From IMG/VR virus record IMGVR_UViG_3300028833_000129: a stretch of DNA of 64,000 nt. One strand, written 5' to 3'. The notes below the pieces were generated by a model. That model saw only the letters and a list, made by a program, of their open reading frames with translations, was not told where the DNA came from and did not search any database. The position numbers and the translations under genes are program-made. Within the stretch, counting starts at the first letter, position 1; every line of letters starts with the position of its first letter. Shown in pieces: positions 21,184-36,884 of this stretch. This DNA is from an uncultured virus (IMG/VR IMGVR_UViG_3300028833_000129). Lineage: Duplodnaviria; Heunggongvirae; Uroviricota; Caudoviricetes.

Positions 21184-21207
21184 GAAAGTAAAAACATGGA
21201 ACATAAG

Positions 21208-21238
21208 AAACCTAGGCTTTAAAAGTCTAGGTTTTTTT
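21208..21238 (+). terminator. Intrinsic terminator
   Basis: AAACCTAGGCTTT-A-AAAGTCTAGGTTT followed by a T-run. Confidence 0.7.
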
Positions 21239-21271
21239 GTTTGATAATATGTTTATTTGAAAAAGATTATA

Positions 21272-22672
21272 ATGGGTTATAATGCATATTATTTATATCA
21301 AAAGTATATTACGATAGGAGACCAACCACCTGTTCCATTCTATCCAGAAACGTATAGTGTCAGTGGCGATAGTGAAAACCCTATGCCACTTGTTTTAAAG
21401 GAAGAGAACAGCGTGGAATGTGGTTATACAGATATTGTATATAGATGGCATCAATTGCCAATATCAACAGCATCAGAATGTTCAGCAGGCACGAAATACT
21501 ATGTTGATATATACCAAGTCAGTTATGATGGTGGCTTATCATGGGAAGATGTTGTGCCAACCACAACAAGAATTGGTGATGTATATGAAACTGGTAGCAG
21601 TGATTGTATTGAATATAGATGGATTACCAAGCCAATAACAGAAGATTATATTTGTGATACTTGCCCACCTGTTCAACCAATATATAGAACATTAACATCT
21701 GCAACAACTTGTGTGGGGTACGACAAACATACACTAGAGGAATACCAAGTTAGTTATGATGAAGGTGTTACTTGGACAACGACAGCAACATCAGCGACCA
21801 CGTTAATAGAGGCTAACAGTGAAGATTGTGGCTATATTCCTCCTGCATCTTACAAGTGGCTTGCAACTTATTATGGGGGTACAACATCATCAGCAAATTG
21901 TGATAGCACATCAGCCATTACCCAGAATGAAATTGAAACAGGTAATCTACAATCAGTTATTATTGGCACTTGTGTTACACACATAAATTATAGGGCTTTT
22001 TATGATGGAAGCATACCTGCTGGTATTTTTACAAGTGTAACCATCCCAAACACTGTTACAAGTATTGGCGATGAAGCTTTTAAACAGGCAGGCCTTACAA
22101 GCGTAATTATTCCAAATAGTGTTACAAGCATTGGAAGTTATGCTTTTCATGCTTGTCAAGGTCTTACTAGTGTAACCATTGGCAGCGGCATTACAAGCAT
22201 TAATGAAGGTGTTTTTCAATCTTGTACTAGTCTTGCAAGCGTAAACATTCCAAATACTGTTAATACTATTGGTACTGTTGCCTTTGATAATTGCCCAAGC
22301 CTTACAGGTATAACAATTCCAAATAGCGTTACTACTATTGGCGTTTGGGCTTTCATGACTTGTAGCGGCCTTACAAGTGTTGCCATTCCAAGCAGTGTTA
22401 CAAGTATTGGTAATTATGCTTTTGCTTATTGTAGAAGTCTTACAAGTGTAACAATAGGAAGTGGTGTTACAGGCATTGATGAAGGTGCTTTCCAAGATTG
22501 TACTAGTCTTACAAGTATAACAATAAATGCAACAACACCTCCAACATTAGGTAGTGCTGCATTTGGCGGCACCAACAATTGCCCAATTTATGTGCCATCT
22601 TCTAGTGTTAACGCTTATAAAACAGCTACAAATTGGAGCAATTATGCTAGTAGAATTCAGGCTATTCCATAG
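21272..22672 (+). CDS. BspA-type LRR (LRR_5) protein with N-terminal Cys/Asp-box modules; 8 LRRs
   Basis: LTSVTIPNSVTSIG..AF..C repeats; QVSYDxGxTW modules; ATTPP...IYVP...YK.A..W cap. Confidence 0.85.
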   Translation: MGYNAYYLYQKYITIGDQPPVPFYPETYSVSGDSENPMPLVLKEENSVECGYTDIVYRWHQLPISTASECSAGTKYYVDIYQVSYDGGLSWEDVVPTTTRIGDVYETGSSDCIEYRWITKPITEDYICDTCPPVQPIYRTLTSATTCVGYDKHTLEEYQVSYDEGVTWTTTATSATTLIEANSEDCGYIPPASYKWLATYYGGTTSSANCDSTSAITQNEIETGNLQSVIIGTCVTHINYRAFYDGSIPAGIFTSVTIPNTVTSIGDEAFKQAGLTSVIIPNSVTSIGSYAFHACQGLTSVTIGSGITSINEGVFQSCTSLASVNIPNTVNTIGTVAFDNCPSLTGITIPNSVTTIGVWAFMTCSGLTSVAIPSSVTSIGNYAFAYCRSLTSVTIGSGVTGIDEGAFQDCTSLTSITINATTPPTLGSAAFGGTNNCPIYVPSSSVNAYKTATNWSNYASRIQAIP

Positions 22673-22737
22673 CCTTCTTCTATAGATGGAATACAGGCTA
22701 TACCATAAATAATTCGTAATAGTTAAAAGAAGTTAAA

Positions 22738-23919
22738 ATGGCGAACGAATGTAAATATTATAAATTGCAGAAACAGTACAGATACGTTGAAGAAACAACA
22801 TGGCATGATGTAACACCTGCTGAATACCAAAAGGGAGAATTATATGAATATCAATCAGAAGATTGTGGATATATCCCACCAACTCCCCAGTACAGAACAT
22901 TAACGTCTGCAAGAACTTGTGTGGGGTATGACAAGTATGTTCTAGAAGAATACCAAGTTAGTTATGATAGTGGTGTTACTTGGACAACGACAGCAACATC
23001 AGCAACAACTTTAGTTGAAGCTGACAGCCCTGATTGTGGCTACCCACCAACGCCTGTAGAACCAATTTATAGATGGACAAATATACCAATATCAGAGGAT
23101 TATATATGTGATGATTGCCCAGAAGTTCAATATAGATGGGTAGCATCAACAGGCTATGTTTGTTCTGGAACAAACAAAATGACAAGGGAAATAGAAGAAA
23201 TTAGTTATGACAGTGGCACTACTTGGACACCAACAGGTGATGAAAGGGCAGCATTGCCAATAATTGAAGCTGCTTCTACTGATTGTGGCTATATACCTCC
23301 AACACCTCCAGCAGGTACTAAATGGATTATAACCTATCTGGATGGAACAACAAGCTCTGGCGAATGTAATTCACTTACAACGTTGGTGTATGACGAAATA
23401 CCGCCAGGTGATGTTAAAACAGTGGCGCTAGGTAATTGTGTTACAGAAATTGGCCTTTATGTTTTCAGAGCTTGTTATACTCTTACAGGCGTAACAATGG
23501 AAGGTACTGTTAGAAGTATTGATGACGAGGCATTTTCATCTTGCATTAACCTTTCAAACATCGATATGACAAATTTTACAAGAATAGATATGGATGCTTT
23601 TTATGGTTGTAGAAGTCTTACAAGTCTGTCATTACCAAGTGTTACATATATTGGTGATGGCGCTTTCAAAAGTTGTAGTGGTCTTACAAGTGTAACGCTT
23701 GGAAGAGGTGTTTCAACTATTGGCGGCGAAGCTTTCAAATATTGCACTAATCTTACTAGTATAACAATAAATGCAACAACACCACCATACATAACAAATG
23801 ACTATGCTTTTCACCATACCAACGACTGCCCCATTTATGTTCCAGCTGCAAGTGTTAACGCTTATAAAACAGCAAATTATTGGAGCACTTATGCTAGTAG
23901 AATTAGAGCAATATCATAA
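22738..23919 (+). CDS. BspA-type LRR protein with Cys/Asp-box modules; 5 LRRs
   Basis: Same architecture as the 21272 gene. Confidence 0.85.
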   Translation: MANECKYYKLQKQYRYVEETTWHDVTPAEYQKGELYEYQSEDCGYIPPTPQYRTLTSARTCVGYDKYVLEEYQVSYDSGVTWTTTATSATTLVEADSPDCGYPPTPVEPIYRWTNIPISEDYICDDCPEVQYRWVASTGYVCSGTNKMTREIEEISYDSGTTWTPTGDERAALPIIEAASTDCGYIPPTPPAGTKWIITYLDGTTSSGECNSLTTLVYDEIPPGDVKTVALGNCVTEIGLYVFRACYTLTGVTMEGTVRSIDDEAFSSCINLSNIDMTNFTRIDMDAFYGCRSLTSLSLPSVTYIGDGAFKSCSGLTSVTLGRGVSTIGGEAFKYCTNLTSITINATTPPYITNDYAFHHTNDCPIYVPAASVNAYKTANYWSTYASRIRAIS

Positions 23920-23941
23920 TTATTAAAAAACGTTAATTGAA

Positions 23942-24799
23942 ATGGCTTGCAAATTTTTTAAGCAGAAGAAACAAGTATCATACGATGATGGGGTGACATG
24001 GGTTGATGTTACCCCAGCTGAATATCAAAAAGGCAGTTTGTATGAATATGATTCAGCAGATTGCCCTAGTCCAACACCAACACCACAATACAGAACATTA
24101 ACAACAGCAACGACTTGCATTAACTATGATAAGTATGTTCTAGAGGAATATCAAGTGTCCTACGATGAAGGTGTTACGTGGACAACAACCGGAACAAGTG
24201 CAACAACTTTAATTGAAGCTAACAGTGAAGATTGTGGCTATGTCCCACCAACGCCAACGTTTAAATGGAAAGCAACTTATACTGGTGGCACAACATCATC
24301 AGCACAGTGTGATTCAACATCATCAATAACAAATGGAGAAATAAACAAAACAGGGCTTACATCAGTTGAAATTGGCACTTGTGTAACAACAATCAATGAT
24401 GATTCTTTCAGTAGCTGTTATAGCCTTACAAGTATAACCATACCTAATAGTGTTACAAGTATAGGCGAACGTGCTTTCCGATATTGCACTGGCCTTACAA
24501 GTATAGATATACCTAATAGTGTTACAAGTATTGGTAATGGCGCTTTCCGTAGTTGTAGCGGCCTTACAAGCATAACAATACCTGATAGTGTTACAAGCAT
24601 TAGTAGTGATGCTTTCGGTTATTGTAGCAACCTTACAAGTGTAACAGTATTAGCGACAACACCACCAACACTAGAAAGCAGTGCATTTTATGGTGCCAGC
24701 AATAACTTAATAATTTATGTGCCATCAGAAAGTGTTAGTGCTTACAAAGCAGCAAGTGGTTGGAGCAGTTACTCTAGTAAAATCAGAGCAATACCTTAA
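23942..24799 (+). CDS. BspA-type LRR protein with Cys/Asp-box modules; 4 LRRs
   Basis: Same architecture as the 21272 gene. Confidence 0.85.
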   Translation: MACKFFKQKKQVSYDDGVTWVDVTPAEYQKGSLYEYDSADCPSPTPTPQYRTLTTATTCINYDKYVLEEYQVSYDEGVTWTTTGTSATTLIEANSEDCGYVPPTPTFKWKATYTGGTTSSAQCDSTSSITNGEINKTGLTSVEIGTCVTTINDDSFSSCYSLTSITIPNSVTSIGERAFRYCTGLTSIDIPNSVTSIGNGAFRSCSGLTSITIPDSVTSISSDAFGYCSNLTSVTVLATTPPTLESSAFYGASNNLIIYVPSESVSAYKAASGWSSYSSKIRAIP

Positions 24800-24829
24800 T
24801 TAATATGTTTATTAAAAAATATACACGAT

Positions 24830-25813
24830 ATGAATTATAGAAATTGGTTAAGAGGTGGCAATTGTGGTTGTGGCTGCAATGGAACACCTAGGCAAATAAA
24901 CAATTGTGATTGTGATTCAATTTGGGCTGAAATTGAAAACCTTCATACGGATGATGAAGTGTTGCAGCAAGAAATAGATGAAATTGACCTTTCAAACTAT
25001 TATACAAAGTTGGAGGTTGATACACTGATTCCTACCAATGTATCAGAACTTGTCAATGATGCTGGATATATTACCAATGCTGCATTAAATGGGTATGCCA
25101 CTGAAACGTGGGTGCAAAATCAAGGCTACCTTACAGAACATCAACATCTAAAGACAGTGAACAATCAAAGTCTTATTGGTGATGGAAATATCGTTATAGA
25201 AGCGTCTGGAGGCTCTGTAACGGTCGATTCGTACCTTGACCCTACAAGTACCAACCCCGTGCAAAACAAAGTCGTTACAATGGCTTTAAATGGAAAATTG
25301 GACGTATCAGCATATACACCTGTTGACCTTTCAAATTATGCCACAAAACAATGGGTTGAAAATAAAAATTATTTAACTGAACATCAGCCATTAAAAACAA
25401 TCAATGGTCAAGTTATTAGTGGAAGTGGAAATATTGTCATAGAGGGCAGTGGAACGTCTATAACAGTAGATGAAAACCTTGACCCTACAAGTACCAATCC
25501 AGTAGAAAATAAAGCGATTGTGGGGGCTTTAAATGGCAAACTTGATGCTAGTGCATATACCCCAACAGACCTTTCAAATTACTATAGCAAACAGGAAGTT
25601 AACAACCTTATCCCTACATCAAACAGTGCTTTAACGAATGATATGCACTATATAACTTCTGCTGAAACTGTTAATTTTGCTACAACTGCTAACACATACA
25701 CTAAAACAGAAGTTAATAATCTAGTTAACAATAAGTTTTGGTGTGGCACGTTAGCAGAATATAATGCACTAGCGGTTAAAGAACCTAATGTGCTTTACTT
25801 AATTCATGAATAA
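24830..25813 (+). CDS. Tail fibre shaft-like protein
   Basis: Repeats DLSNYYTK, VSELVNDAGY, LKTVNNQSLIG.GNI, DPTSTNPV.NK; C-terminal GTLAEYNALAVKEPNVLYLI. Confidence 0.7.
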   Translation: MNYRNWLRGGNCGCGCNGTPRQINNCDCDSIWAEIENLHTDDEVLQQEIDEIDLSNYYTKLEVDTLIPTNVSELVNDAGYITNAALNGYATETWVQNQGYLTEHQHLKTVNNQSLIGDGNIVIEASGGSVTVDSYLDPTSTNPVQNKVVTMALNGKLDVSAYTPVDLSNYATKQWVENKNYLTEHQPLKTINGQVISGSGNIVIEGSGTSITVDENLDPTSTNPVENKAIVGALNGKLDASAYTPTDLSNYYSKQEVNNLIPTSNSALTNDMHYITSAETVNFATTANTYTKTEVNNLVNNKFWCGTLAEYNALAVKEPNVLYLIHE

Positions 25814-25815
25814 TT

Positions 25816-26550
25816 ATGATATTTAATAATAATCAAATAACAGGCATATATTATTCTGGTTTTACAATCGTAAAGGCGTTTTCATGTGATGGTGAATTGG
25901 TGTTTGGCGAATTTGGAAAAAAGATGGAATACCAATATTCAAATGGAACTACAGGAACTGTTGAATGCAATGGAGACCCAATATTAACTTCTGGGGACAC
26001 AAACCATCAAGTCATAAGAACACCAGATACACCTTGCTATAGAACTGTAGTTGTTGGCGATTGTGTAACAGGTATTGGTGATTCTGCATTTGAACAAGAA
26101 ACGTGTTTGGTAAGTTGCATATTGCCACAAAGTTTGGTGACAATTGGCAAGTCGGCTTTTGCACATTCTTGTTTACCTTCGATTAATATACCAAGTGGTG
26201 TTACAAGAATTGAAGGAAGTGCTTTTGCAGGCTGCACATCATTAACAGCCATAACAATTCCAATAGGGGTTAAAGAAATAACTTCTGGAGTTTTCATGAA
26301 TTGTACTAGATTAACTTCAATTGAAATACCAAGTGGCGTTACTTCCATTGGAATTTCATCTTTTGATGGTTGCAGTGGTCTTACAAGTATTAAAATTAAT
26401 GCAGTAACACCACCTGAAATATTTGCTAGTAGTTTTAGACCATTCGACAACACAAATAACTGCCCAATTTATGTTCCAGCTGCAAGTGTTAATGCATACA
26501 AAACAGCACAAAATTGGACTTTATATGCATCAAGAATCCAAGGTTTTTAA
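25816..26550 (+). CDS. BspA-type LRR protein with short N-terminal adaptor; 5 LRRs
   Basis: LRR_5 repeats and C-terminal cap; starts 2 nt after the fibre gene stop. Confidence 0.85.
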   Translation: MIFNNNQITGIYYSGFTIVKAFSCDGELVFGEFGKKMEYQYSNGTTGTVECNGDPILTSGDTNHQVIRTPDTPCYRTVVVGDCVTGIGDSAFEQETCLVSCILPQSLVTIGKSAFAHSCLPSINIPSGVTRIEGSAFAGCTSLTAITIPIGVKEITSGVFMNCTRLTSIEIPSGVTSIGISSFDGCSGLTSIKINAVTPPEIFASSFRPFDNTNNCPIYVPAASVNAYKTAQNWTLYASRIQGF

Positions 26551-26563
26551 ATAAAACGAATGA

Positions 26564-26587
26564 AAGGGTGTAGATGGCTACACCCTT
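26564..26587 (+). terminator. Intrinsic terminator
   Basis: AAGGGTGTAG-ATGG-CTACACCCTT followed by a T-rich tail. Confidence 0.7.
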
Positions 26588-26631
26588 ATTTATTTTGTCT
26601 AACAATATGTTTATTAGAAAATCTAGATTTT

Positions 26632-27255
26632 ATGGAAATTAATAAAATAAAAGTTCAAAACGTTGATTTTGATATTCGTGATATATCAGCAACAAAGACT
26701 GTTGAATTAACCCAAGCGGAGTATGATGCATTGGTAACAAAAGACCCCAATACTTTATACATCATAACTGATGCTACTGCTGGGGATTTAAGCGATTATT
26801 ATAACAAAGATGAAATTGATGATTTGTTAGACGAAATTGAAAGTGTTGCAGCGGCAGCATTAAACGACCTTGAAGAAAAGAAACTTGATGCTAGTGCATA
26901 TACACCAACTGACCTAACAAATTACTATAACAAGACAGAAGTTAATGGACTGTTGGCAAATAAGGTTGATACTACAGCGTTTTCAACTTATTCAGCAGCA
27001 ACAGAAGCAAGACTTGCAGAAGACGAAGAGGTGACAGCAGCAGCATTAAACGACCTTGATGCAACCACTGATGCAATAAATGATGTTGTCACAGCACATA
27101 CAGCAAACACTACAGTCCACATCAATTCAACTGAAAGGACAAATTGGAATGGTGCTGTTACAGCATTGGGTGGCTTGAAACTTGTAAAACTGACCCAAGC
27201 ACAGTATGATGCCCTAGCAACTAAAGATGCAAATACACTCTATATTATTGTTTAA
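26632..27255 (+). CDS. Tail fibre adaptor-like protein with two LTQAxYDAL..KD.NTLYII motifs
   Basis: Start MEINKIK lies 18 nt after the late motif; duplicated V.AAALNDL coiled segments. Confidence 0.7.
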   Translation: MEINKIKVQNVDFDIRDISATKTVELTQAEYDALVTKDPNTLYIITDATAGDLSDYYNKDEIDDLLDEIESVAAAALNDLEEKKLDASAYTPTDLTNYYNKTEVNGLLANKVDTTAFSTYSAATEARLAEDEEVTAAALNDLDATTDAINDVVTAHTANTTVHINSTERTNWNGAVTALGGLKLVKLTQAQYDALATKDANTLYIIV

Positions 27256-28088
27256 TGAAAACCTGCATTCACACTGTCATACTTAATGAACTAGACGAAT
27301 ACTTAAAGTCATGGTTGGACTATCATACAAAGATGGTTGACCAGATCTTCATATATGAAGACATTGGCAGCCATTCACATAAGCATATAACTGACCAATA
27401 TGATAATGTTACCCTCTGGAGCGTGTTTGATATATATGATAACGAACAAGGCAAGAAGAAACTGATAACAAACAGGGAAAAAGGGGGCATAAATCAAAGG
27501 TTTTACATTGTTGATGGTGTACTAAAGATACAGGCATTAAAGGTATATGATTGGTGTTTTACGTTGGATATAGACGAATACATTACATTACAAGACCCAT
27601 ATAAGGCAATTTCAGACGTTCTGGAGGGTTTTCAAGACAAAGATGCAGTATTGCTCCAATGGATGAATTTTGGAGCGTCTGGGAGGGTTTATAAGCCAAA
27701 TTATGATGGCAAGGACTATAGGGAGTTTTACACACAAAGGGGAAATGATACAGATTGGGATGCAAAGGTATGCATAAACACCAAGATATGTTGGAATTTA
27801 AACAAGATTACAAGATGGCATATTTGTGGATTGCATTGCCCAGCAGGGAATTGGGTTAAGACCAATGGAAAGAAGGATAGAAGGGCAATTGTATATGATA
27901 AAATGTATCTGAAACACTATATTACAAGGAGTTGGGAAGAATATATTTGGAAACTCTATAAAAGGGGTATGCATTGCAGGGATAGGCATAGAAAGATAGA
28001 TGATTTTTTTCAAATAAACCCTGATATGTTGCCAATGTATGACGAATTAATTAAAATAAAAGAAAAAATACTACAAAAATATGGCTAA
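27255..28088 (+). CDS. Glycosyltransferase, GT-A fold (GT2/GT92-like)
   Basis: WLDYH...IFIYED, DWCFTLDIDEYI (DxD), WMNFGASG, HYITRSWEEY motifs. Confidence 0.75.
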   Translation: MKTCIHTVILNELDEYLKSWLDYHTKMVDQIFIYEDIGSHSHKHITDQYDNVTLWSVFDIYDNEQGKKKLITNREKGGINQRFYIVDGVLKIQALKVYDWCFTLDIDEYITLQDPYKAISDVLEGFQDKDAVLLQWMNFGASGRVYKPNYDGKDYREFYTQRGNDTDWDAKVCINTKICWNLNKITRWHICGLHCPAGNWVKTNGKKDRRAIVYDKMYLKHYITRSWEEYIWKLYKRGMHCRDRHRKIDDFFQINPDMLPMYDELIKIKEKILQKYG

Positions 28089-28707
28089 TAACTTAAAAAA
28101 GTTTGCAACGGTGGCAGATTATAATGCTGCAACATTGAATTATCCAGCAGTTTCTTGGGTAACTGCAACTGATAGCATTTATTATGATAAAAGTGCACCT
28201 AATGATAAGGTTATGATTGCATGGCATACACCTAGTGATGCAAGAGATGGCGAAGATATTGTATTGTTCAATGGTGCTTCATCTGACGTTGGAGACAAAA
28301 TTTCAAGTGTAACAATTAATGATGTTGAAGTCAACCCAATTGCAGCAGTTTGGGAAAACCAATCAGTCCATAATACAGACTATGTTGTTAAGTATGGCTT
28401 GCAAAACACCACAACCATTTTCGATGCATTTACTGGTGATTTAGGTGGTGGTTGGGGCAGTGATGCACAGCCAATAGACTTTCTTGTTCCAGCCCAAATA
28501 ACAACAGTTGGCAGTCTTCCATCAAACGTTGGAAATTTGGTGCTTGAAACCACAACACCACCAACAGTTTTGTTTGGCTTTTCTGCATTAAGCCTTGATG
28601 GAATATATGTTCCAGATAATGCTGTTAACACATATAAAGCAACATGGATGGAATCAGAGAATATTATTTATCCAATATCTGATTATGATGGCGTTTTGCC
28701 AGTGTAA
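28081..28707 (+). CDS. Degenerate BspA-related protein (C-terminal cap with about one LRR)
   Basis: ETTTPPT...IYVPDNAVNTYKATW...IYPIS cap; N-terminal LKKFATVADY..P.VS motif. Confidence 0.65.
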   Translation: MANNLKKFATVADYNAATLNYPAVSWVTATDSIYYDKSAPNDKVMIAWHTPSDARDGEDIVLFNGASSDVGDKISSVTINDVEVNPIAAVWENQSVHNTDYVVKYGLQNTTTIFDAFTGDLGGGWGSDAQPIDFLVPAQITTVGSLPSNVGNLVLETTTPPTVLFGFSALSLDGIYVPDNAVNTYKATWMESENIIYPISDYDGVLPV

Positions 28708-28720
28708 AAATTGATAAATT

Positions 28721-29710
28721 ATGAAGATAGGGAATTTAGACATATCAGCGTTTAAGGTAGGTGGCAACGATTGTTCCATCTACCTAGGCGATGTTAAACT
28801 ATATCCAACAGCAGAACCAAATTTTAAATGGAAAGCAACTTATACTGGGGGCAGCGTTACAACAGCGGAATGTGATTCATCATCAGCAATAACAGAGAAT
28901 GAAGTTACATTGGCTGACCTTGAATCAGTGCTGATTGGCGACTGTGTAACAAGTATTAGCCAAAATGCTTTCAAAGGTAGTAGTGGCCTTACAAGTGTAA
29001 CAATACCTAATAGTGTTACAAGTATTGGTAGTAGCGCTTTCGGTTGGTGTACCGGCCTTACAAGTGTAACAATACCTGATAATGTTACAAGCATTGATGA
29101 ATATGTTTTTGCTTATTGCAGTAGCCTTACAAGTGTAACCATAGGAAGTGGTGTTACAAGCATTAGAAATAGTGCTTTCTCTAACTGTAGAAGTCTTCCA
29201 AACATAACAATACCTAATAGTGTTACAACCATTGGTTATGATGCTTTCAGTAGTTGTAGTGGCCTTACAAGCATAAATATTCCAAGTGGCGTTACAATAA
29301 TTAATAATAATACTTTTTTTAATTGTAGAAGTCTTCCAAGCATAACAATACCTGATAGCGTTACAAGTATTGGTAATTACGCTTTCCAAAATTGTATAAG
29401 ACTTACAAGTATAACAATACCTGATAGTGTTACAAACATTAATAGTGGCGCTTTTAGAGGTTGTAGTGGCCTTACAAGTGTAACTATTGGTAATAGTGTT
29501 ACAAGTATTGGTGATAGTGCTTTCAGAGGTTGTAGTAGTCTTACAAGTGTAACAGTTTTAGCCACAACACCGCCAACGTTAGGTAGTGGCGTATTTATAA
29601 ATACTAGCAATAACTTAATAATATATGTACCATCAGCAAAAGTTAGTACCTATAAAACAGCAAGTGGGTGGAGCAATTATGCTAGTAATATACAAGCAAT
29701 ACCAACATAA
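28721..29710 (+). CDS. BspA-type LRR protein with short N-terminal adaptor; 9 LRRs
   Basis: Nine 23-aa LRR_5 repeats (69-bp period). Confidence 0.9.
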   Translation: MKIGNLDISAFKVGGNDCSIYLGDVKLYPTAEPNFKWKATYTGGSVTTAECDSSSAITENEVTLADLESVLIGDCVTSISQNAFKGSSGLTSVTIPNSVTSIGSSAFGWCTGLTSVTIPDNVTSIDEYVFAYCSSLTSVTIGSGVTSIRNSAFSNCRSLPNITIPNSVTTIGYDAFSSCSGLTSINIPSGVTIINNNTFFNCRSLPSITIPDSVTSIGNYAFQNCIRLTSITIPDSVTNINSGAFRGCSGLTSVTIGNSVTSIGDSAFRGCSSLTSVTVLATTPPTLGSGVFINTSNNLIIYVPSAKVSTYKTASGWSNYASNIQAIPT

Positions 29711-29730
29711 TTATTCATATATAATAAACT

Positions 29731-32700
29731 ATGATTAAATACAACGAATCAAAAATAAATGATTGGAACTTTGGCGATGACAATATCATAAAGGTGTATC
29801 GAAACAATGCCGTTTGTTACTATAAGGTTGCAGGAAGTTCACCAACAGCCCAAACACCATGTTTTGCAGTTGTCGATGATATAACACAGTATCACGACAC
29901 TGAATTTGTTGATGTATTTGACAATGCAACTGAAAAATGGTACAAACTTAACAATCTTAATCAATTTGAAGAATATGGTGTATATGCTAGCGGAAGAACT
30001 GAATGCCAAAGTGCACCATCAAGGCTACCAGCTGGATATACAGAATTGGTAGATTTTACTGTTCCAATGGTGCATGATGTATATGGTGCAAGTGCCTTTA
30101 CTGTTCCAAACAATCTTCAAGAAGATTACAAATACACATTTGAATTTACCCCACTAGATTTTTATACAACAAGTTATTATGGCGATATTGTCGATAATGA
30201 TGGTGGCGTGGAGTTTAAAAAGTTTGGAATATTGAAATGGGATAATGGTTGGGGAACTGTTGCCAATAGAGGGTGTGTTTCTCTATTCAACTATAGAATG
30301 GATGGAAGGAATGTTGATAGCAGCCCAATGGCAGGTAAAATTGCATTTTATGAAAATTCTAGAACTAAAGTTGTAACTAATTTGCATAATTACACGTTGG
30401 GGCAAGGCGCTGATTTACTTATTGAAAGTGAAGGGTATGAAACATATAGTGGAACAAGCACAATGACATGGAGTTCAGCAACAATTGCAACAGGTATATA
30501 CGATATGCCATTGTTTTCTACTATAAATGGAAATAACAATAACAGTTGGTATTCTGCAAATTTGAAGTTCCATAACTTCAAGGTTGAAACAAGTGGTGGC
30601 ACTGCTGTTTATGACTATGTTCCTTGCAAAATGGATAGCGACAATAAAGTTGGCGTGTATGACATTGTAAACAATGCATTCTATGCACCTTCTGCATTCA
30701 CATTAACAGCAGGTGAAGAGGGAACACCACAACAGGATTGTGTCACAACATATAAGGGAAAGTTGACCATTGATGGTGATTATGAATATGAATGGGATGG
30801 TAATAGTTGGAATAATCTAGGAGAAATAACAGGTGATTCAAAAACAAACAATTTCACAATTGAAAATATTGGCGAAAGTGGCGATACAAGCAATTTTTCT
30901 GATGGTGATTATGTTGTTATATCATTTAAGAACCACAACAACCCCAAAGAACCACAATATATGATGTCATATTTTAACGATGGCACGTACAATAGGGCGG
31001 GCAATTTCAGTGCCAATACAGGTTCGAATACAATAACCACAAGCACCATCATTGATGCAGCAGTATGGAAATTGGAAGATACAGCATCGGCAAATACATA
31101 TTACATCAAAAACGTTAATACTGGTGAATATTTTGGTTATCAAGCAAGGACAACTTCAAATTCATTCTATTTGGTTGATGAATCCCAAAAAGCACCAATT
31201 CTTCTAGATGATTATGATGGGGCGATTGGCTTAATTGAAATGAAACAGTGGGGCGGCAGTTATTTTGGTGGGTATGGATTGAATCAGTTGTTTAATTCTA
31301 CTAATTTGCTTAATTGGTATAATAACGACGGTAGAAGCGAAAGTGCTTTCTATACAAATGATGGAAATGCATTATATACAATGTACAAAGTCAATAATGG
31401 CGCTGTTGATTATCCAAAGTATTATGCTGACAAGTCAGAACCAGAAAACTATGTAACATTTGATACAATGGAAGAGGCACTTGCATACGAATGCCCTTGG
31501 GTTGGAATGGTTGCATTTATTGATGGCGAAAGATATACATTTGATTCTACAAATACTTGGGTTAAAGTTCTGGAATATTACAAGGTTGAAGATGTAACGC
31601 CAAATGCTGCAAGTGGATGGACAATTACCCAATCTGCAACGTATAATCCAAATTCTTCGTATTATGATGATTTCGACCTTGAAACAACTTCAACTTCATA
31701 TTCTTATAAAGTTGCAAAGGTTACGATTTTTGGGTATGAAGACTTTACATATTATTTAAGAACAAGTGGCTATCCAAGCAATAACTATGTTGTTGCAACA
31801 AATGTTGATGAATTGTCAACAGACCAGACAAGCATGTCCTATAATGACCCTAGAGCAATAACAAATACGTATGGATGGGACAAAGCACCAAAATCTGCTG
31901 TTAATTTAAGCAACTATAGAAGGGTAACATATAATAATCTGGATAAAAATGTCGAACACACGTTTTATGTTATTTTCTATGGCAGAACATACAGCAGTTA
32001 TATTGGCAATGCAACAATATTAATTCCAAAAGACCAAACAAATGAAAATTGGGAGCAGGTAACATTCTCTGCATCAACAATTAGTTCAACAGTTAATAAA
32101 AACTTGTATATTGATGGCAATAATTCAACAAGTGGTGGCACTAATTATTTCTATAGTAGATGGATTATAGGTTTACCAAGTGGCAGTCATACTTCATATA
32201 CAAACTATTCAAACTATAATTATTGCCCAAGCGTATCTAGTGCCACATTTACGTCTGTTGCAGGCGACGTAAGAAGCGTTAACTTTATATATGATTCTAT
32301 AAGCAATAAAACATTACAGTTAAGACTTGTAGATGGCAACAGCAATGTTTTAACACCTAGTGAAACTGTATATTATAATCTGTTTAAATATAATGCTTGT
32401 GGTGTTGGAATTTCTAGTATAAATTCATATCCAAGAAATGAATCTATGCCAATAGGAGGTAGGTTTAGACTTGCCCAATCATCAGATAGGCATTACATAT
32501 ATGGCTATCAACTACAAACTGCATTAAATACAGACTTTTACACTGACAACTACAATAGCACATTTGATATTGTTTATTCCAAGTTAAATGATGAAGCAGT
32601 AACAATTACCTATGTAACGTATGACCCCAATGATGCTGAAACACCTGCATTTAAGACAGAAGTAACATGGCCATATAATGGTGGCACAACGTCTTCAACA

Positions 32701-33636
32701 ACGTCGACAAGTTATGACGTGCCATATACGTATAGTTACACTGTTAGTCAGACAAGCAACATGTTTTCAGCAAATAACCAGGTGTTCACAGCAGGGCAAG
32801 CAGCAAGGACAGTAACGTTTACATTATACCCCAATAACAGGGAGTTTGCAAGCGTGGCAGACATGGAAGCATATGCATATGCATGGGAAGGAATGAAAGC
32901 AACTGTTAATGGAACAAAGTATAAATATGAAAATGGTGAATGGGTTGAAAATACATATTCTTTACCAGATATTCCATTTGTGCTTAATTATAACGCCAAA
33001 CAATATGATGCCACGACACATTCAATGCCAAAAACAGATGGGCAGTTGAATGATGTTGATGCAGTTGCAGTAGTGAATCCTTCTAACATTGTTGACCATT
33101 CTGCTGATGGTTATATATCAGTTAATACTGCTTCAATGCAAATAAGAAAAGCAAATCAAGACATTGCACTTTTCAATCGTACAAATACATCAACAGGTGC
33201 AGCATTTACCATTGTTTCAAAAGCTATGACAACTTCTGCTGGTACACATAGTGTTATAACAAACAGGGATAACAATTACAATTGGATGTATAGACAATAT
33301 ACAGGAAAACTAACATTGCATGGAACTAGTCCAACAGGTGAAATTTCTTGTTCAAGTTCAAACCCTGATATATTATCAGCTAGAGTATATTGGGATAATA
33401 ATTCTGCAAAAGTGTATTATAATAACTGGACAAGTGGAAATGCTACAACCCCAACTAATTTTACTTTTGGTGGCATAAATGCTGATAGTTCAAAAGCAGG
33501 TGCATTATTTACTGGTTATGGTTATAATGTTACTAAAGAACAATGGGTAGGCGATTTCTATTGGATTTACATGTCACAGACAACATTAACTGATGAACAA
33601 ATTCAACAGGTGATTGACTACAACGAAAACCTATAA
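29731..33636 (+). CDS. Large multidomain receptor-binding/adhesin protein (lectin-like domains)
   Basis: 1301 aa; ConA/LamG-like segments (YDYVPC...VGVYDIVNNAFY; LTDEQIQQVIDY) and a beta-trefoil-like segment (VWKLE...YYIKNVNTGEY) separated by repeated linker motifs. Confidence 0.55.
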   Translation: MIKYNESKINDWNFGDDNIIKVYRNNAVCYYKVAGSSPTAQTPCFAVVDDITQYHDTEFVDVFDNATEKWYKLNNLNQFEEYGVYASGRTECQSAPSRLPAGYTELVDFTVPMVHDVYGASAFTVPNNLQEDYKYTFEFTPLDFYTTSYYGDIVDNDGGVEFKKFGILKWDNGWGTVANRGCVSLFNYRMDGRNVDSSPMAGKIAFYENSRTKVVTNLHNYTLGQGADLLIESEGYETYSGTSTMTWSSATIATGIYDMPLFSTINGNNNNSWYSANLKFHNFKVETSGGTAVYDYVPCKMDSDNKVGVYDIVNNAFYAPSAFTLTAGEEGTPQQDCVTTYKGKLTIDGDYEYEWDGNSWNNLGEITGDSKTNNFTIENIGESGDTSNFSDGDYVVISFKNHNNPKEPQYMMSYFNDGTYNRAGNFSANTGSNTITTSTIIDAAVWKLEDTASANTYYIKNVNTGEYFGYQARTTSNSFYLVDESQKAPILLDDYDGAIGLIEMKQWGGSYFGGYGLNQLFNSTNLLNWYNNDGRSESAFYTNDGNALYTMYKVNNGAVDYPKYYADKSEPENYVTFDTMEEALAYECPWVGMVAFIDGERYTFDSTNTWVKVLEYYKVEDVTPNAASGWTITQSATYNPNSSYYDDFDLETTSTSYSYKVAKVTIFGYEDFTYYLRTSGYPSNNYVVATNVDELSTDQTSMSYNDPRAITNTYGWDKAPKSAVNLSNYRRVTYNNLDKNVEHTFYVIFYGRTYSSYIGNATILIPKDQTNENWEQVTFSASTISSTVNKNLYIDGNNSTSGGTNYFYSRWIIGLPSGSHTSYTNYSNYNYCPSVSSATFTSVAGDVRSVNFIYDSISNKTLQLRLVDGNSNVLTPSETVYYNLFKYNACGVGISSINSYPRNESMPIGGRFRLAQSSDRHYIYGYQLQTALNTDFYTDNYNSTFDIVYSKLNDEAVTITYVTYDPNDAETPAFKTEVTWPYNGGTTSSTTSTSYDVPYTYSYTVSQTSNMFSANNQVFTAGQAARTVTFTLYPNNREFASVADMEAYAYAWEGMKATVNGTKYKYENGEWVENTYSLPDIPFVLNYNAKQYDATTHSMPKTDGQLNDVDAVAVVNPSNIVDHSADGYISVNTASMQIRKANQDIALFNRTNTSTGAAFTIVSKAMTTSAGTHSVITNRDNNYNWMYRQYTGKLTLHGTSPTGEISCSSSNPDILSARVYWDNNSAKVYYNNWTSGNATTPTNFTFGGINADSSKAGALFTGYGYNVTKEQWVGDFYWIYMSQTTLTDEQIQQVIDYNENL

Positions 33637-33641: not shown

Positions 33642-33670
33642 AAAATCCCAAGCGTTAAACTTGGGATTTT
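33642..33670. terminator. Bidirectional terminator between convergent genes
   Basis: AAAATCCCAAG-CGTTAAA-CTTGGGATTTT. Confidence 0.75.
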
Positions 33671-34784: not shown

Positions 34785-36884
34785 ATGGTAAAGAACTTTT
34801 TAATGAAATTCTGCAAATATGGTATTCACAACCTTCAACCATATTGTTATATATTTGATGAAACAAACGTAAAGTCAATTAAAATAGATAATGGCAGGGC
34901 ATACGTTCAAATGATACACCCTTCACCAACTATTTTATCTGGTTTTTCAATATCATTCAACGAAACAACGTCACTTGATGAAAGGTATAGGTTTACAAAG
35001 TCGGTTGTTATCAATGTTGCAGGAAAGGCAGACATAACAACGTTGGTTGGAAGGAAACTATATGTTGTCTTGGAAGGCAAAAATGGAAAGCGTTATCTTT
35101 TCAATCCAGACTTTAAGGCAAACTTGCAATATACATTCAATGTTGGGGAAAATCAGAACCAAACGGAAATAACGTTTCAGACCTCTTCAAATTACCCCAC
35201 CTTGGTAGTTGACCACTTGAACGTGGAAAAGCCAACAGCGTGCTCCTATTATGCCTTAAATGGCATTCTAAAGGTAGAAATGATAGAGCAGACAAAGGCA
35301 AGGCTTGACAGAAATGCAAAAATAGCGTATTTGACTGAAAATCTAAAGGACATTGAACACTACAAGAACAGTGCAATGGTCGAAGAAAACTTTGATGGTG
35401 AAAAGATAACAAACACGCTTCAATTTGCACTTCCATTGTCTTCATTTGATGATTCATTTCCTTATAACCTTCTAGAGTTTTTCAATAACGTATATTTTGC
35501 AAAGGTAACAACAAAGGACAATAAAATTATATACATCGAAAACCTTCAACCCAAATATAACGTTGAAGCATCATCAAACGTTGGCAATAGCGACACTGTT
35601 ACGATAACATTAACTGCTGTTGGAAGACTAGGCGTTGTGGTTGATGAAATTGAAGAGCAGAAAAATGAAGAAACATATTGGGATTTTGTCAGATACATTG
35701 GAAACGTCAAGACCTATGAATGTAGTGGAGGACCAGGACTTGCAAGGCACTTGATGATGGCTGAATTTAATGCATTGGGAAATATGACAGGCAAATACAA
35801 GATGGTTGAAGACGTATATGAATGCTTGCAAGACCCTGATGATGATTGGTGTCATGAAAACTATGATGGATTATTGCAATTTTGGAATGACATTGTTGGA
35901 ACATTTGAAAACGTCACTTTTCCACGTCCAAACACCAACTATTTTCCAACAATAGAATGTGCATACAGGGAAGACGAACATGATTGCACCATTGAAACCA
36001 ATATGCCAAATACAATTGCATTATCTGGATCTTCATTATCATTTGATTTTATGGCATCATGCAATTGGTCAATAACACCTGCAACAACTGCTGTCACTGT
36101 AAGTCCTGCAACAGGGGAAGGTGGCACAAACTATACAATAACCATTACTTCCAACGTAACACCCTCTACAGGCTCTATAAACGTCCCATTGGCTGTTTTA
36201 TGTTGTGCTAGTGAATATAACTATAACGTCAACATACAAGCCCCTATTAGTTGTATAAAGCCCCAAGAAACAACTATTGACTGTCTACAACAAACAATAT
36301 CATTCGAAGTTAATTGTGATAATTTCTATGTCGATAGCATTACAAAAGATGGCAGTGTCGTTTCAGATATAACAACGACAAAGGGGTATAATACACTTAA
36401 TGTAACAATACCCCAAAACACAACGTCAGACCCAATACAATACGTTATAACAGTGTCTGGATGCTGCAATGGAACTGCAACCATCAACCAAACAAAGCAA
36501 TATTCAGATTGGATTGTCGAAGATGGTGAATACATTTGTCAAGATGGGGCAAAGTACGAAAAGGTGTATCTTTGGACTGGAACATCAACAACAACATTGG
36601 TGAAAACATCAACGTTTAGGATTGGAAGCCTTATTCAATCACATAGTAGGGATTGTTGGTTGGATTCTCGTTGGAGTTGGCTAGGGCATTATATCTGCCT
36701 TGATGCAGAAGACGAGCATTGCCAGAAATATAGATTAATGGAAGAGGAATATACACTTGATGGTGTTACATGGCAAACAACAGGGCATGTGAAACTTGGG
36801 GATTTTGTTGCCATTGACTGTGATTTTTGCAACCAAACGACAACAATAACTTGGGTGTTGACTGATGAAATCCTGTGCCTTTAA
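34785..36884 (+). CDS. Tail protein: tandem tail-tube-like domains, BACON-like domains and Cys/Asp-box modules
   Basis: IEHYKNSAMVEE resembles tail tube IEPQKNSASFED; CNWSIT...VTVSPATG.G (BACON-like); EEYTLDGVTWQTTG. Confidence 0.55.
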   Translation: MVKNFLMKFCKYGIHNLQPYCYIFDETNVKSIKIDNGRAYVQMIHPSPTILSGFSISFNETTSLDERYRFTKSVVINVAGKADITTLVGRKLYVVLEGKNGKRYLFNPDFKANLQYTFNVGENQNQTEITFQTSSNYPTLVVDHLNVEKPTACSYYALNGILKVEMIEQTKARLDRNAKIAYLTENLKDIEHYKNSAMVEENFDGEKITNTLQFALPLSSFDDSFPYNLLEFFNNVYFAKVTTKDNKIIYIENLQPKYNVEASSNVGNSDTVTITLTAVGRLGVVVDEIEEQKNEETYWDFVRYIGNVKTYECSGGPGLARHLMMAEFNALGNMTGKYKMVEDVYECLQDPDDDWCHENYDGLLQFWNDIVGTFENVTFPRPNTNYFPTIECAYREDEHDCTIETNMPNTIALSGSSLSFDFMASCNWSITPATTAVTVSPATGEGGTNYTITITSNVTPSTGSINVPLAVLCCASEYNYNVNIQAPISCIKPQETTIDCLQQTISFEVNCDNFYVDSITKDGSVVSDITTTKGYNTLNVTIPQNTTSDPIQYVITVSGCCNGTATINQTKQYSDWIVEDGEYICQDGAKYEKVYLWTGTSTTTLVKTSTFRIGSLIQSHSRDCWLDSRWSWLGHYICLDAEDEHCQKYRLMEEEYTLDGVTWQTTGHVKLGDFVAIDCDFCNQTTTITWVLTDEILCL

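What the first reader, a model, noticed from the sequence alone, without database searches (positions are those of the whole stretch)
21272..29710. Array of BspA-type LRR genes in the structural region: a recombination-diversified receptor repertoire
Seen: five LRR_5 genes with 8, 5, 4, 5 and 9 repeats plus a degenerate sixth, all behind late motifs and lacking signal peptides. Repeats keep a near-constant DNA framework (CTTACAAG..TAAC.AT.CC..ATAGTGTTACAAG.ATTG) while the residues around 'IGxxAFxxC' vary widely. All five share a pre-LRR connector (KWxATYxGGxTSSAxC-like) and a C-terminal cap. Genes 23942 and 28721 share near-identical connector and cap DNA (TTTAAATGGAAAGCAACTTATACTGG; AGCAATAACTTAATAAT) but have unrelated N-termini, which points to domain swapping. 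Established: BspA LRRs are bacterial surface adhesins that bind proteins. Inference: virion-displayed binding modules diversified by repeat shuffling and gene conversion, without a DGR reverse transcriptase or invertase, loosely analogous to variable lymphocyte receptors.
Basis: partly seen in the sequence, partly recalled or inferred. Interest (0 to 1): 0.8.

Follow-up and report, generated by a model that had tools for sequence, protein, structure and literature searches.

The report
Phage tail leucine-rich-repeat adhesin gene array
A gut phage of ruminants carries five genes for bacterial-type leucine-rich-repeat binding proteins among its tail genes, and relatives weld the same modules onto a tail-tube-like protein, so they are most likely swappable sticky heads on the phage tail, not a programmed diversity generator.

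Summary
There are five LRR_5 genes with 8, 5, 4, 5 and 9 repeats and a degenerate sixth. They share a connector and a cap, and they lack signal-peptide-like N-termini.

Two details are overstated. Only L1 sits directly behind the promoter-like motif ATATGTTTATT; the others lie inside three operon-like units. The L3 and L5 connector and cap DNA is 68% and 77% identical, not near-identical.

New here:
- Window protein 34785-36884 has a double tail-tube fold (Z 12.1 to a phage major tail protein).
- In 12 of 22 complete relatives this protein carries the same stalk, LRR and cap modules at its C-terminus.
- The 30-residue N-terminus of L5 also heads non-LRR fibre-like proteins.
- All 22 of 22 relatives with enough DNA carry differing LRR arrays.
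- Contigs of two bovine strains, 94-99% identical in the middle block, join the L1-L3 modules differently.

Best reading: tail-displayed adhesin modules that evolve by ordinary modular recombination. I found no reverse transcriptase, invertase, silent cassettes or recent conversion.

The scan found the same kind of array before on other DNA (e1-3999324).

The parts
21247..21257 (+). Promoter-like motif ATATGTTTATT, 14 nt upstream of the L1 start. It heads the unit L1-L2-L3.
   Evidence: 8 exact copies in the window against 0.35 expected. It follows the terminator-like hairpin at 21205-21237.
21272..22672 (+). L1: N-terminal 'YYLYQKY' head, two Asp-box (S.D.G.TW) stalk modules, connector, 8 LRR_5 units and cap.
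   Evidence: Pfam LRR_5 E 1.4e-63. Units; Asp-box motifs at aa 89 and 166 of the TTG-start ORF. The ATG at 21272 fits the starts of relatives.
22738..23919 (+). L2: starts at an Asp-box module boundary. Several stalk modules, connector, 5 LRR units and cap.
   Evidence: Pfam LRR_5 E 1.2e-28.
23942..24799 (+). L3: two Asp-box stalk modules, connector, 4 LRR units and cap.
   Evidence: Pfam LRR_5 E 4.9e-32. AlphaFold2 model with pLDDT 92.6. Fold matches to LRR_5 structures 4fdw, 4fd0, 6mlx and 4cp6. Residues 4-285 are 46% identical to aa 762-1059 of the tail-tube fusion protein L026_11851.
24803..24813 (+). Promoter-like motif, 16 nt upstream of the fibre gene at 24830. It heads the unit T327-L4.
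24830..25813 (+). T327: fibre-like protein with internal repeats and a C-terminal phage tail tip domain.
   Evidence: Pfam PF24243 Phage_tail_C E 6.7e-09. Internal DNA repeat 25094-25338 / 25337-25581.
25816..26550 (+). L4: short N-terminal anchor, connector-like stretch, 5 LRR units and cap. It starts 2 nt after T327 ends.
   Evidence: Pfam LRR_5 E 6.2e-29. Covered at about 98-99% identity by contigs of two bovine runs.
26564..26587 (+). Terminator-like hairpin after L4.
26605..26615 (+). Promoter-like motif, 16 nt upstream of the ATG at 26632. It heads the unit T231-GT-L6d-L5-p1301.
26632..27255 (+). T231: fibre-like protein with two tail tip domains. The true start is probably 26632, not 26560.
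   Evidence: Pfam PF24243 E 2e-26 with 2 stretches. PHROG tail protein hits. Start inferred from the motif position.
27255..28088 (+). Glycosyltransferase (GT2/GT92-like) inside the fibre operon.
   Evidence: Pfam PF13704 E 1.1e-06 and PF01697 E 1.1e-05. It lies next to an L6d-type gene in all 3 relatives that have it.
28081..28707 (+). L6d: degenerate sixth member. It has its own N-terminal head and a recognisable cap, but the LRR units are eroded.
   Evidence: No Pfam hit. Cap HMM hit. The first 40 aa are 80% identical to the head of a 329-aa intact LRR protein in locus L017.
28721..29710 (+). L5: 30-aa N-terminal anchor, connector, 9 LRR units and cap.
   Evidence: Pfam LRR_5 E 4e-71. The anchor is 67-70% identical to the N-termini of L017_18759 (an orthologue of the 1301-aa protein) and of the 321-aa protein L067_19608. 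Homologues with the same head range from 257 to 574 aa.
29731..33636 (+). p1301: large protein without a Pfam family. Its N-terminus is a variant of the L5/L4 anchor. Probably a fibre or spike.
   Evidence: No Pfam, PHROG or PDB sequence hit. N-terminal links.
33642..33670 (+). Terminator-like hairpin ending the third unit.
34785..36884 (+). p705: tail-tube-fold protein (double tube domain at aa 14-289, Ig/PapD-like domains at aa 394-680, one Asp-box-like module at the end). It is the scaffold to which relatives fuse the LRR modules.
   Evidence: AlphaFold2 pLDDT 75. VIA-align: 8xan_B Z 12.1 over 230 aa, 8ed0_A Z 11.9 over 235 aa, 7qg9_I Z 11.4, 5ngj_A Z 10.2. Fusions. The motif at 34758 lies 16 nt upstream.

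Best explanation
The array encodes interchangeable adhesin heads of a long-tailed temperate phage of ruminant gut bacteria, probably Bacteroidota.

Each head is one unit: a short beta-hairpin connector, 4-9 BspA-type LRR units and a helical cap. The unit reaches the virion in one of two ways.
- In many relatives it is the covalent C-terminal extension of a tail-tube-fold protein, behind Ig-like domains and Asp-box stalk modules.
- In this phage it has been split into free-standing genes. These keep either the stalk modules (L1-L3) or a 30-residue N-terminal anchor (L4, L5) that the large fibre-like protein p1301 also carries.

The genes are made late, in three operon-like units headed by a shared promoter-like motif, together with two tail-tip fibre proteins and a glycosyltransferase.

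The repertoire changes through ordinary homologous and illegitimate recombination at module boundaries. This takes the form of gain and loss of repeat units, duplication, fusion and fission of whole modules, and exchange of heads between strains. Presumably this retargets adhesion.

Shown: the domain make-up, the fold, the operon signals, the fusions in relatives, the shared anchors and the differences between relatives.
Inferred: presence in the virion, the docking mode of the free-standing proteins, the ligand, and the host phylum.
For: Phage context:
- XkdF-type protease, capsid protein, portal, large terminase, endolysin and integrase are present.
- Window 20616-64000 equals a 43,385-bp circular IMG/VR genome.

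LRR identity and fold.

Tail link:
- p705 aa 14-289 match double-domain tail tube proteins, with Z 12.1, 11.9 and 11.4.
- p705 is followed by a 1237-aa protein with weak tape-measure PHROG hits.
- Its homologue lies directly after the capsid genes in 31 loci.
- 12 of 22 complete relatives carry LRR units or a cap in the same ORF. In L026_11851, aa 3-640 resemble p705 and aa 762-1059 resemble the whole of L3.
- 74 of the 150 best database representatives of the tube domain carry LRR units or caps by my own HMMs.
- 25 of 38 representatives scanned with Pfam carry LRR_5. Others carry BACON, CotH or PAP2 instead.

Anchors:
- L5 aa 1-30 are 67-70% identical to the heads of L017_18759 (a p1301 orthologue) and L067_19608.
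- The L6d head is 80% identical to that of an intact LRR protein.

Operons: motif and hairpins. No signal peptides.

Variation:
- 22 of 22 relatives with >=9 kb downstream of the capsid gene have 1-4 LRR genes, 1-10 caps and 2-48 units.
- Homologues with the same head have differing unit numbers, double modules and extra domains.
- Contigs of two bovine-gut runs are 94-99% identical over 24497-28811, yet join 21611 to 23129 (X6) and 23272 to 24071 (X5). They also replace part of the L5 cap, and X6 runs on unlike the window just after the L5 anchor.

Weak hint of expression: contigs of an RNA library from another study match pieces of every gene without a difference.
Against: - No direct evidence shows that any of these proteins is in the virion.
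- In this phage none of the five is fused to the tube-fold protein, and how free-standing L1-L3 would dock is unknown.
- The similarity between the p705 C-terminal module and the L3 stalk is weak (39% over 49 aa, E 0.024 in a tiny database).
- The tube-fold protein could be a baseplate ring protein rather than the major tail protein. The T5 tail-tip chain 7qg9_I scores as well as true tube proteins.
- The between-strain joins come from k-mer contigs in repetitive DNA and could be partly chimeric. Several joins have sides of only 22-35 letters.
- The RNA-library contigs may stem from DNA carry-over.
- LRR proteins of relatives are not more diverged than the protease (median best-hit identity 38-51% against 42%), so fast evolution relative to all other genes is not shown.
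- The host is not identified. Scans of 185,579 species genomes gave only two whole-phage contigs binned into unrelated MAGs.
Confidence: 0.62

Rival explanations
1. The LRR proteins are not virion parts. They would be soluble late proteins that act in the infected cell or are released at lysis, for example binding host proteins, blocking receptors on neighbouring cells, or serving as decoys.
For: In this phage all five are free-standing and none is fused to a structural fold. LRR domains are general protein binders. No docking partner was identified.
Against: - The same modules sit on a tail-tube-fold protein in 12 of 22 relatives.
- They are co-arranged with tail-tip fibre genes behind shared promoter-like motifs.
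- The N-terminal anchor is shared with a 1301-aa fibre-like protein.
Confidence: 0.15
2. The proteins decorate the capsid rather than the tail, as T4 Hoc does, and mediate loose adherence to mucus or feed particles.
For: L1 lies two genes after the capsid gene. Decoration proteins with binding domains are known from my own knowledge (T4 Hoc), not from a call.
Against: In most relatives the gene in that slot is the tube-fold protein, not a capsid protein. The interleaved genes carry tail-tip domains.
Confidence: 0.08
3. The array is a programmed diversity generator comparable to lamprey VLR assembly, DGR mutagenesis or an invertase shufflon. It would produce variants within a phage population.
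For: Repeat framework conserved at the DNA level, with skewed codons: Leu CTT 82% against 28% and Ser AGY 84% against 39% in other genes. Four variable positions per unit. Third-position T in 65% of variable codons against 38% in reference genes.
Against: - No reverse transcriptase, deaminase or invertase among the 51 ORFs scanned.
- No template repeat or silent cassettes outside the array.
- No inverted repeats, and all genes lie on one strand.
- Units are at most 86% identical.
- The contigs of the likely source-like runs and the IMG/VR record agree 100% with the window over the array.
Confidence: 0.03
4. The genes are lysogenic-conversion genes. They would be BspA-like adhesins expressed from the prophage and exported to the bacterial surface.
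For: The LRR parts are 50-75% identical to LRR proteins of Bacteroidales, Prevotella, Muribaculaceae and Paludibacteraceae MAGs, some of which carry a T9SS sorting domain. The phage is temperate, with integrases.
Against: - No signal-peptide-like N-terminus and no T9SS C-terminal domain.
- The genes lie inside the structural block behind the same motif as the protease and tube-fold genes.
Confidence: 0.05

Closest known systems
BspA-type / LRR_5 (PF13306) surface proteins of gut and oral bacteria. Solved examples matched here: 4fdw, 4fd0, 4fs7 and 4gt6 (putative cell-surface proteins), TpLRR 6mlx, PcpA 4cp6.
   Same: Same Pfam family and the same 23-residue repeat. Same fold, with Foldseek E 5.8e-09 to 1e-04 and profile E down to 6e-83. 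The LRR parts are 50-75% identical to Bacteroidales and Prevotella MAG proteins.
   Different: The phage proteins have no signal peptide or T9SS sorting domain. Instead they carry phage-specific heads (Asp-box stalk modules or a 30-aa anchor), and they are encoded in a phage tail module.
Decoration domains on siphophage tail tube proteins: T5 pb6 with its Ig-like domain (5ngj) and the P74-26 double-domain tube protein (8ed0). Lambda gpV is recalled, not from a call.
   Same: The scaffold protein p705 has the double tube fold plus Ig-like domains. Relatives extend it C-terminally with binding domains.
   Different: The payload is one to six LRR_5 modules, up to 39 units in a 2,076-aa protein, rather than a single Ig-like domain. 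In this window the payloads are separate genes.
Multi-RBP phages whose receptor-binding proteins share an N-terminal docking module. One example is the DUF7941 proteins of phage Goslar, followed by carbohydrate-binding, glycoside hydrolase or LRR/beta-helix domains (preprint 10.64898/2026.04.21.720040, passages only).
   Same: One short N-terminal head is combined with different C-terminal bodies, both LRR and non-LRR.
   Different: The head sequence is unrelated, and the partner on the virion is unknown. The bodies are mostly LRR_5.
Variable lymphocyte receptors of jawless vertebrates (3wo9, 2o6r, 3g3a).
   Same: LRR solenoid with a capping module and a variable number of units. Weak fold matches, Foldseek E 0.04-0.11.
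   Different: There is no incomplete germline gene flanked by silent cassettes, no deaminase and no somatic assembly. The variable residues lie at positions 15, 16, 19 and 20, while the 'LTSVTIP' strand is nearly constant.
Diversity-generating retroelements acting on phage tail fibres.
   Same: A phage binding protein with a few hypervariable positions.
   Different: No reverse transcriptase and no template/variable repeat pair.

Membership tests
Pfam LRR_5 / BspA-type leucine-rich repeat | Match to PF13306 above the gathering score | tested here: met
   Five genes score 100-237 bits against a cut-off of 27.7. The sixth gene (28081-28707) has no hit.
Pfam LRR_5 / BspA-type leucine-rich repeat | Right-handed LRR solenoid like the solved LRR_5 proteins | tested here: met
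   L3 model with pLDDT 92.6. Best PDB matches are 4fdw, 4fd0, 6mlx, 4fs7, 4gt6 and 4cp6.
Bacterial BspA-like surface adhesin (exported, cell-anchored) | Signal peptide and a surface anchor or sorting domain | tested here: not met
   Highest hydropathy in the first 35 aa is <=1.24, against 2.2-2.8 in four bacterial homologues. No PF18962 or other anchor domain was found.
Bacterial BspA-like surface adhesin (exported, cell-anchored) | Binding to host or matrix proteins | not testable with these tools
   Needs binding assays.
Phage receptor-binding / tail adhesin proteins | Encoded in the tail module and co-arranged with tail fibre genes | tested here: met
   Interleaved with two PF24243 tail-tip-domain proteins. 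Three units headed by the same motif as the protease and tube-fold genes.
Phage receptor-binding / tail adhesin proteins | Conserved N-terminal docking part with an exchangeable C-terminal body | tested here: met
   The L5 head is found on L017_18759 (a p1301 orthologue) and on the 321-aa protein L067_19608. The L6d head is found on an intact LRR protein. The same head occurs with bodies of 257-574 aa.
Phage receptor-binding / tail adhesin proteins | Physical presence in the virion and binding to a host receptor | not testable with these tools
   No cultured phage or host. Phage GenBank records give no close relative.
Tail-tube protein decoration domains | Covalent fusion of the binding domain to a protein with the tail tube fold | tested here: not met
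   In this window p705 carries no LRR and L1-L5 are separate genes. The feature is met in relatives: 12 of 22 complete ORFs and 25 of 38 representatives by Pfam.
Tail-tube protein decoration domains | The scaffold has the tail tube fold | tested here: met
   p705 aa 14-289: Z 12.1 (8xan_B major tail protein), 11.9 (8ed0_A P74-26 tube), 11.4 (7qg9_I), 10.2 (5ngj_A T5 pb6). Whether it is the major tube or a tube-like ring remains open.
Diversity-generating retroelement | Reverse transcriptase plus a template/variable repeat pair | tested here: not met
   No RVT family among the 51 ORFs. No LRR copy outside the array.
VLR-like cassette assembly | Incomplete expressed gene, silent donor cassettes and an AID-like deaminase | tested here: not met
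   All five genes are complete ORFs with start, connector and cap. No deaminase was found.
Invertase shufflon | Inverted repeats around segments, plus a nearby recombinase | tested here: not met
   The longest inverted pairs in 21000-34000 are 16-37 nt at 71-94% and lie inside unrelated genes. The integrases are 19-20 kb away.

The most novel reading that the evidence does not exclude
In this phage family the tail is a display scaffold. The tube-fold protein, present in many copies along or at the end of the tail, carries one to six LRR heads. Other members carry BACON, CotH or PAP2 domains in the same position.

In the phage of this window the heads have been cut loose into a set of five genes. 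These would dock non-covalently through Asp-box stalk modules or a 30-residue anchor, which would allow mixed coats.

Such a polyvalent LRR coat would serve first-contact adhesion to capsule, glycan or feed and mucosal surfaces in the rumen rather than single-receptor recognition. It would be a protein-repeat counterpart of the Ig-domain 'adherence to mucus' idea, with between-strain head exchange setting where the phage lingers.
Probability: 0.25. Interest if true: 0.75.

Novelty: new variant of a known kind. Interest (0 to 1): 0.55.

Why it matters
LRR_5 proteins are among the commonest unexplained proteins of gut phage catalogues. The fold search found many uncultured gut phage proteins named only 'leucine-rich repeat protein', and none has a tested function.

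A rumen virome paper read LRR-rich viruses as probably eukaryote-infecting (PMC12592517, passages only). Phage families like this one offer another explanation for at least part of that signal.

The fusion to a tail-tube-fold protein gives a concrete, testable place for these modules on the virion. It also gives a family of at least 57 related contigs in which natural head swaps can be related to host range.

My six literature searches found no paper describing LRR_5 modules on a phage tail tube. The library lacks most subscription journals, so this is not proof that none exists.

Tried and rejected
- Complex prediction with three copies of L5 (alignment A3) gave the verdict 'no answer', score 0.00. 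This says nothing about oligomeric state.
- Megablast of 18000-30000 against GenBank phages gave no match. tblastn of the capsid protein against the same set also gave no match. No cultured or annotated relative is therefore available.
- The genome search 'own' failed because the assembly is not held. I used the nearest record, G001, instead.
- Host search with the capsid protein in genome contigs gave only two 44-46 kb contigs, binned into a Methanobrevibacter and a Lachnospiraceae MAG. Their size suggests that they are whole phage contigs put in the wrong bin.
- Host search with the integrase gave one 29% match in a Clostridia MAG. No host could be assigned.
- A sequence search of p1301 against the PDB gave nothing.
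- Foldseek on p705 was swamped by Ig-domain hits. Only the full VIA-align search showed the tube fold.
- Single-linkage clustering of N-termini chained all LRR genes into one cluster and was uninformative as a classification. I read the individual links instead.
- Gene conversion between L3 and L5: the 26-nt exact run is about two standard deviations above expectation for sequences about 77% identical (my arithmetic). I do not count it as evidence of recent conversion.
- Parts of the array without contig cover in runs X5, X6 and X10 are not used as evidence of absence.
- Earlier scan notes for this genome: none.

Full report
**What the window is.**
The window is phage DNA. It encodes an XkdF-type prohead protease, a capsid protein with a weak SU10-type match, a portal, a large terminase, a GH108 endolysin, three homing endonucleases and two integrases. 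The integrases carry the Arm-DNA-bind_5 and Phage_int_SAM_5 domains.

Window 20616-64000 is identical to a 43,385-bp circular IMG/VR record, G001, which is 43,512 bp long including a 127-bp terminal overlap. Window 1-20615 is the left part of a second, related phage. Its stretch 16838-20615 is 99.3% identical to 60225-64000, and the parts further left are only 65-69% alike. The array in question belongs to the part shared with G001.

Runs that hold the stretch come from sheep, cattle and goat gut metagenomes.

**The observation.**
Five ORFs match Pfam LRR_5 with E-values from 1e-28 to 4e-71. The start of L1 is the ATG at 21272, which fits the starts of homologues.

The sixth gene, 28081-28707, has no Pfam hit. 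It keeps the cap and has an N-terminal head that is 80% identical to the head of an intact 329-aa LRR protein in a relative.

I compared the 26 units of exactly 23 residues out of 31; the five units of 22 or 27 residues were left out.
- The DNA frame is conserved.
- I13 and F18 are invariant.
- Positions 15, 16, 19 and 20 each hold 9-11 different residues.
- The strand 'LTSVTIP' is nearly constant. In classical LRR proteins this is the ligand face (my knowledge, not a call).
- This pattern is the general LRR_5 pattern and is not peculiar to the array.

Codon choice in the units is skewed. Leu is CTT in 82% of cases against 28% in six other genes, and Ser is AGY in 84% against 39%. Variable codons end in T in 65% of cases against 38% in reference genes.

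Units are not recent copies. The best pair is 86% identical in DNA. The mean is 65% within genes and 60% between genes.

**Two points of the observation do not hold as written.**
The motif ATATGTTTATT occurs 8 times exactly against 0.35 expected. It always lies 14-18 nt before a start codon and often behind a terminator-like hairpin. In the region it precedes only L1, the fibre gene at 24830 and the fibre gene whose real start is then 26632. The other LRR genes follow their upstream neighbours by 2-65 nt.

This gives three operon-like units:
- L1-L2-L3
- T327-L4
- T231-glycosyltransferase-L6d-L5-p1301

They are closed by hairpins at 21205-21237, 26564-26587 and 33642-33670.

Second, genes 23942 and 28721 do share the quoted 26-mer and 17-mer. 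Their connectors are nevertheless 68% identical and their caps 77%, while the caps of L1 and L2 reach 78%. L3 and L5 are simply the closest pair of paralogues, at 75-81% over the LRR part. Their N-termini are indeed unrelated.

**What the proteins are.**
The AlphaFold2 model of L3 is confident, with pLDDT 92.6. It shows two long beta-hairpin modules built around an Asp-box motif (S.D.G.TW), then a hairpin connector, the LRR solenoid and a helical cap.

The best solved matches are putative cell-surface LRR proteins of Bacteroides (4fdw, 4fd0, 4fs7), TpLRR (6mlx) and PcpA (4cp6). Among predicted viral structures there are many 'leucine-rich repeat proteins' of uncultured gut phages.

The LRR parts are 50-75% identical to proteins of Bacteroidales, Prevotella, Muribaculaceae and Paludibacteraceae MAGs. 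Four of those bacterial proteins have signal-peptide-like N-termini, and the six phage proteins do not.

**The link to the tail.**
In 31 of the related loci the gene after the capsid genes starts with a conserved domain that the array region of the window lacks. Its homologue in the window is the protein at 34785-36884, here called p705. It has its own copy of the motif.

The p705 model has pLDDT 75. Residues 14-289 match double-domain tail tube proteins:

| PDB chain | Protein | Z | Aligned residues |
|---|---|---|---|
| 8xan_B | Major tail protein of phage SH-Ab15497 | 12.1 | 230 |
| 8ed0_A | P74-26 tail tube | 11.9 | 235 |
| 7qg9_I | A T5 tail-tip chain | 11.4 | 218 |
| 5ngj_A | T5 pb6 | 10.2 | 302 |

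Residues 394-680 are Ig/PapD-like domains. A homing endonuclease and then a 1237-aa protein with weak tape-measure hits follow p705.

Among 30 relatives with a p705 homologue, 8 ORFs run off the locus end. Of the 22 complete ones, 12 carry LRR units or a cap in the same ORF. In L026_11851 (1061 aa), residues 3-640 align with p705 and residues 762-1059 align with the whole of L3 at 46% identity.

A search of 1.84 billion representative proteins with p705 residues 1-390 found 318 proteins, with the domain nearly always at the N-terminus.
- Of the best 150, 74 have LRR units or caps by my own HMMs. One has up to 39 units and 6 caps in 2,076 aa.
- Of 38 representatives scanned with Pfam, 25 have LRR_5. 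Three have BACON-type domains, two PAP2 and one CotH.
- The window's own p705 ends in one Asp-box-like module that resembles the L3 stalk weakly (39% over 49 aa).

So the unit 'stalk modules, connector, LRR, cap' is a covalent appendage of a tail-tube-fold protein in much of the family. L1-L3 look like the same appendage as separate genes. L2 and L3 begin exactly at a module boundary.

**Shared heads.**
The first 30 residues of L5 are 67% identical to the head of L017_18759. That protein otherwise aligns with the 1301-aa protein downstream of L5. They are also 70% identical to the head of the 321-aa protein L067_19608. The head of p1301 itself is a variant of the same motif, and L4 is linked through intermediates.

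Database proteins with the L5 head and connector range from 257 to 574 aa. They differ in unit number, some have two complete modules in tandem, and some have an extra non-LRR C-terminal domain. This is the usual architecture of exchangeable phage binding proteins.

**Variation among relatives.**
The capsid protein finds 57 IMG/VR loci at 62-77% identity. Of these, 22 hold at least 9 kb downstream, and all 22 carry 1-4 LRR genes, with 1-10 caps and 2-48 units by my HMMs. In one locus, L054, the genes lie on the other strand. No two arrays are alike except those of L048 and L059.

Closer strains come from contigs of public runs. Two bovine-gut runs from different studies cover 24497-28811 (T327, L4, T231, glycosyltransferase, L6d) at about 94-99% identity, but they differ at the LRR genes.
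- In X6, one 1,047-nt contig joins 21611 to 23129. This runs from L1 into L2 at a shared 'YRW' module and skips 1,517 nt. It then continues into other LRR units.
- In X6, another contig stops fitting 90 nt into L5, right after the anchor.
- In X5, a contig joins 23272 to 24071.
- In X5, another contig replaces 93 nt of the L5 cap by 87 other letters.

These are k-mer contigs in repetitive DNA, so single joins may be chimeric. The pattern is still conserved flanks with rearranged LRR genes.

A goat run holds pieces without differences. Contigs of an RNA library from another study match pieces of every gene of the array without a difference, one of them across the L1-L2 junction. DNA carry-over is not excluded, so this is only a hint of expression.

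**What it is not.**
- No reverse transcriptase, deaminase or invertase was found among the 51 ORFs scanned.
- No LRR copy lies outside the array.
- All genes are on one strand, without meaningful inverted repeats.
- The window and the independent IMG/VR record agree 100% over the array from 21863 on.

I therefore read the diversification as ordinary recombination over evolutionary time, not a programmed process.

**Literature.**
My six searches found no description of LRR_5 modules on a phage tail tube. I read passages only of three papers.
- A preprint on phage Goslar reports N-terminal DUF7941 modules followed by carbohydrate-binding, hydrolase or LRR/beta-helix domains.
- A rumen virome paper took LRR-rich viruses for eukaryotic viruses.
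- The SPLASH preprint notes LRR_5-associated diversity in gut metagenomes and judges the link to LRR_5 possibly incidental.

Supplements were not consulted.

**Earlier notes of this scan.**
I looked these up after the analysis above. One describes the same kind of array, with tube-fold fusions, in another genome (e1-3999324). Related LRR tail proteins are described in e1-5772695, e1-209001 and e1-5744385.

**Verdict.**
The array is real. It is best explained as a set of tail-displayed LRR adhesin heads that are exchanged module by module. The VLR-like reading is not supported. It is a new variant of a known principle and has not been tested experimentally.

Noticed in passing
window 1-20615 versus 43386-64000: The window holds more than one genome length. 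20616-64000 is a complete 43,385-bp circle (= G001). 16838-20615 repeats 60225-64000 at 99.3%. 1-16838 is a divergent left arm, 65-69% identical in pieces, with its own integrase (424-1755) and an extra 1362-aa ORF (12725-16813). This is either two related prophages in tandem or a chimeric assembly of two strains.
   Followed up: partly
window 18369, 21247, 24803, 26605, 34734(-), 34758, 54730, 61754: The motif ATATGTTTATT lies 14-18 nt before start codons. This implies that several longest-ORF starts are too early: protease 18398 rather than 18371, fibre gene 26632 rather than 26560, and tube-fold gene 34785 rather than 34767. It resembles the TAnnTTTG -7 box of Bacteroidota promoters (recalled, not tested).
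   Followed up: partly
window 27255-28088: A GT2/GT92-like glycosyltransferase sits inside the fibre operon. In the 3 relatives that have it (L017, L047, L067) it lies next to an L6d-type gene. It may glycosylate virion proteins or modify the host surface.
   Followed up: no
window 36894-37526(-), 41325-41879(-), 46437-46976(-), 1-414: GIY-YIG and HNH homing endonuclease genes lie on the opposite strand between the tube-fold gene, the tape-measure-like gene and the portal gene. The cut ORF at the window start resembles the GIY-YIG gene, 67-79% in DNA.
   Followed up: no
proteins P0240, P0248, P0249, P0256, P0261: Other members of the tube-fold protein family carry BACON or viral BACON, CotH kinase-like or PAP2 domains at the C-terminus in place of LRR modules. 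The C-terminus therefore looks like a general display site.
   Followed up: partly
loci L068 and L069: Two related 44-46 kb contigs are filed in MAGs labelled Methanobrevibacter and Lachnospiraceae. Their size suggests that they are whole phage genomes put in the wrong bin, so those labels should not be read as hosts.
   Followed up: no
window 58118-58210 (-): ARAGORN calls a tRNA-Gly (tcc) on the strand opposite to, and inside, the 976-aa ORF 57248-60178. I did not check whether it is real.
   Followed up: no
window 22360-23054 versus 23607-24255: A 700-nt stretch spanning the end of one LRR gene, the intergenic gap and the start of the next is repeated one gene further on at 70% identity. 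This is the footprint of an old tandem duplication of a unit that crosses the gene boundary.
   Followed up: partly
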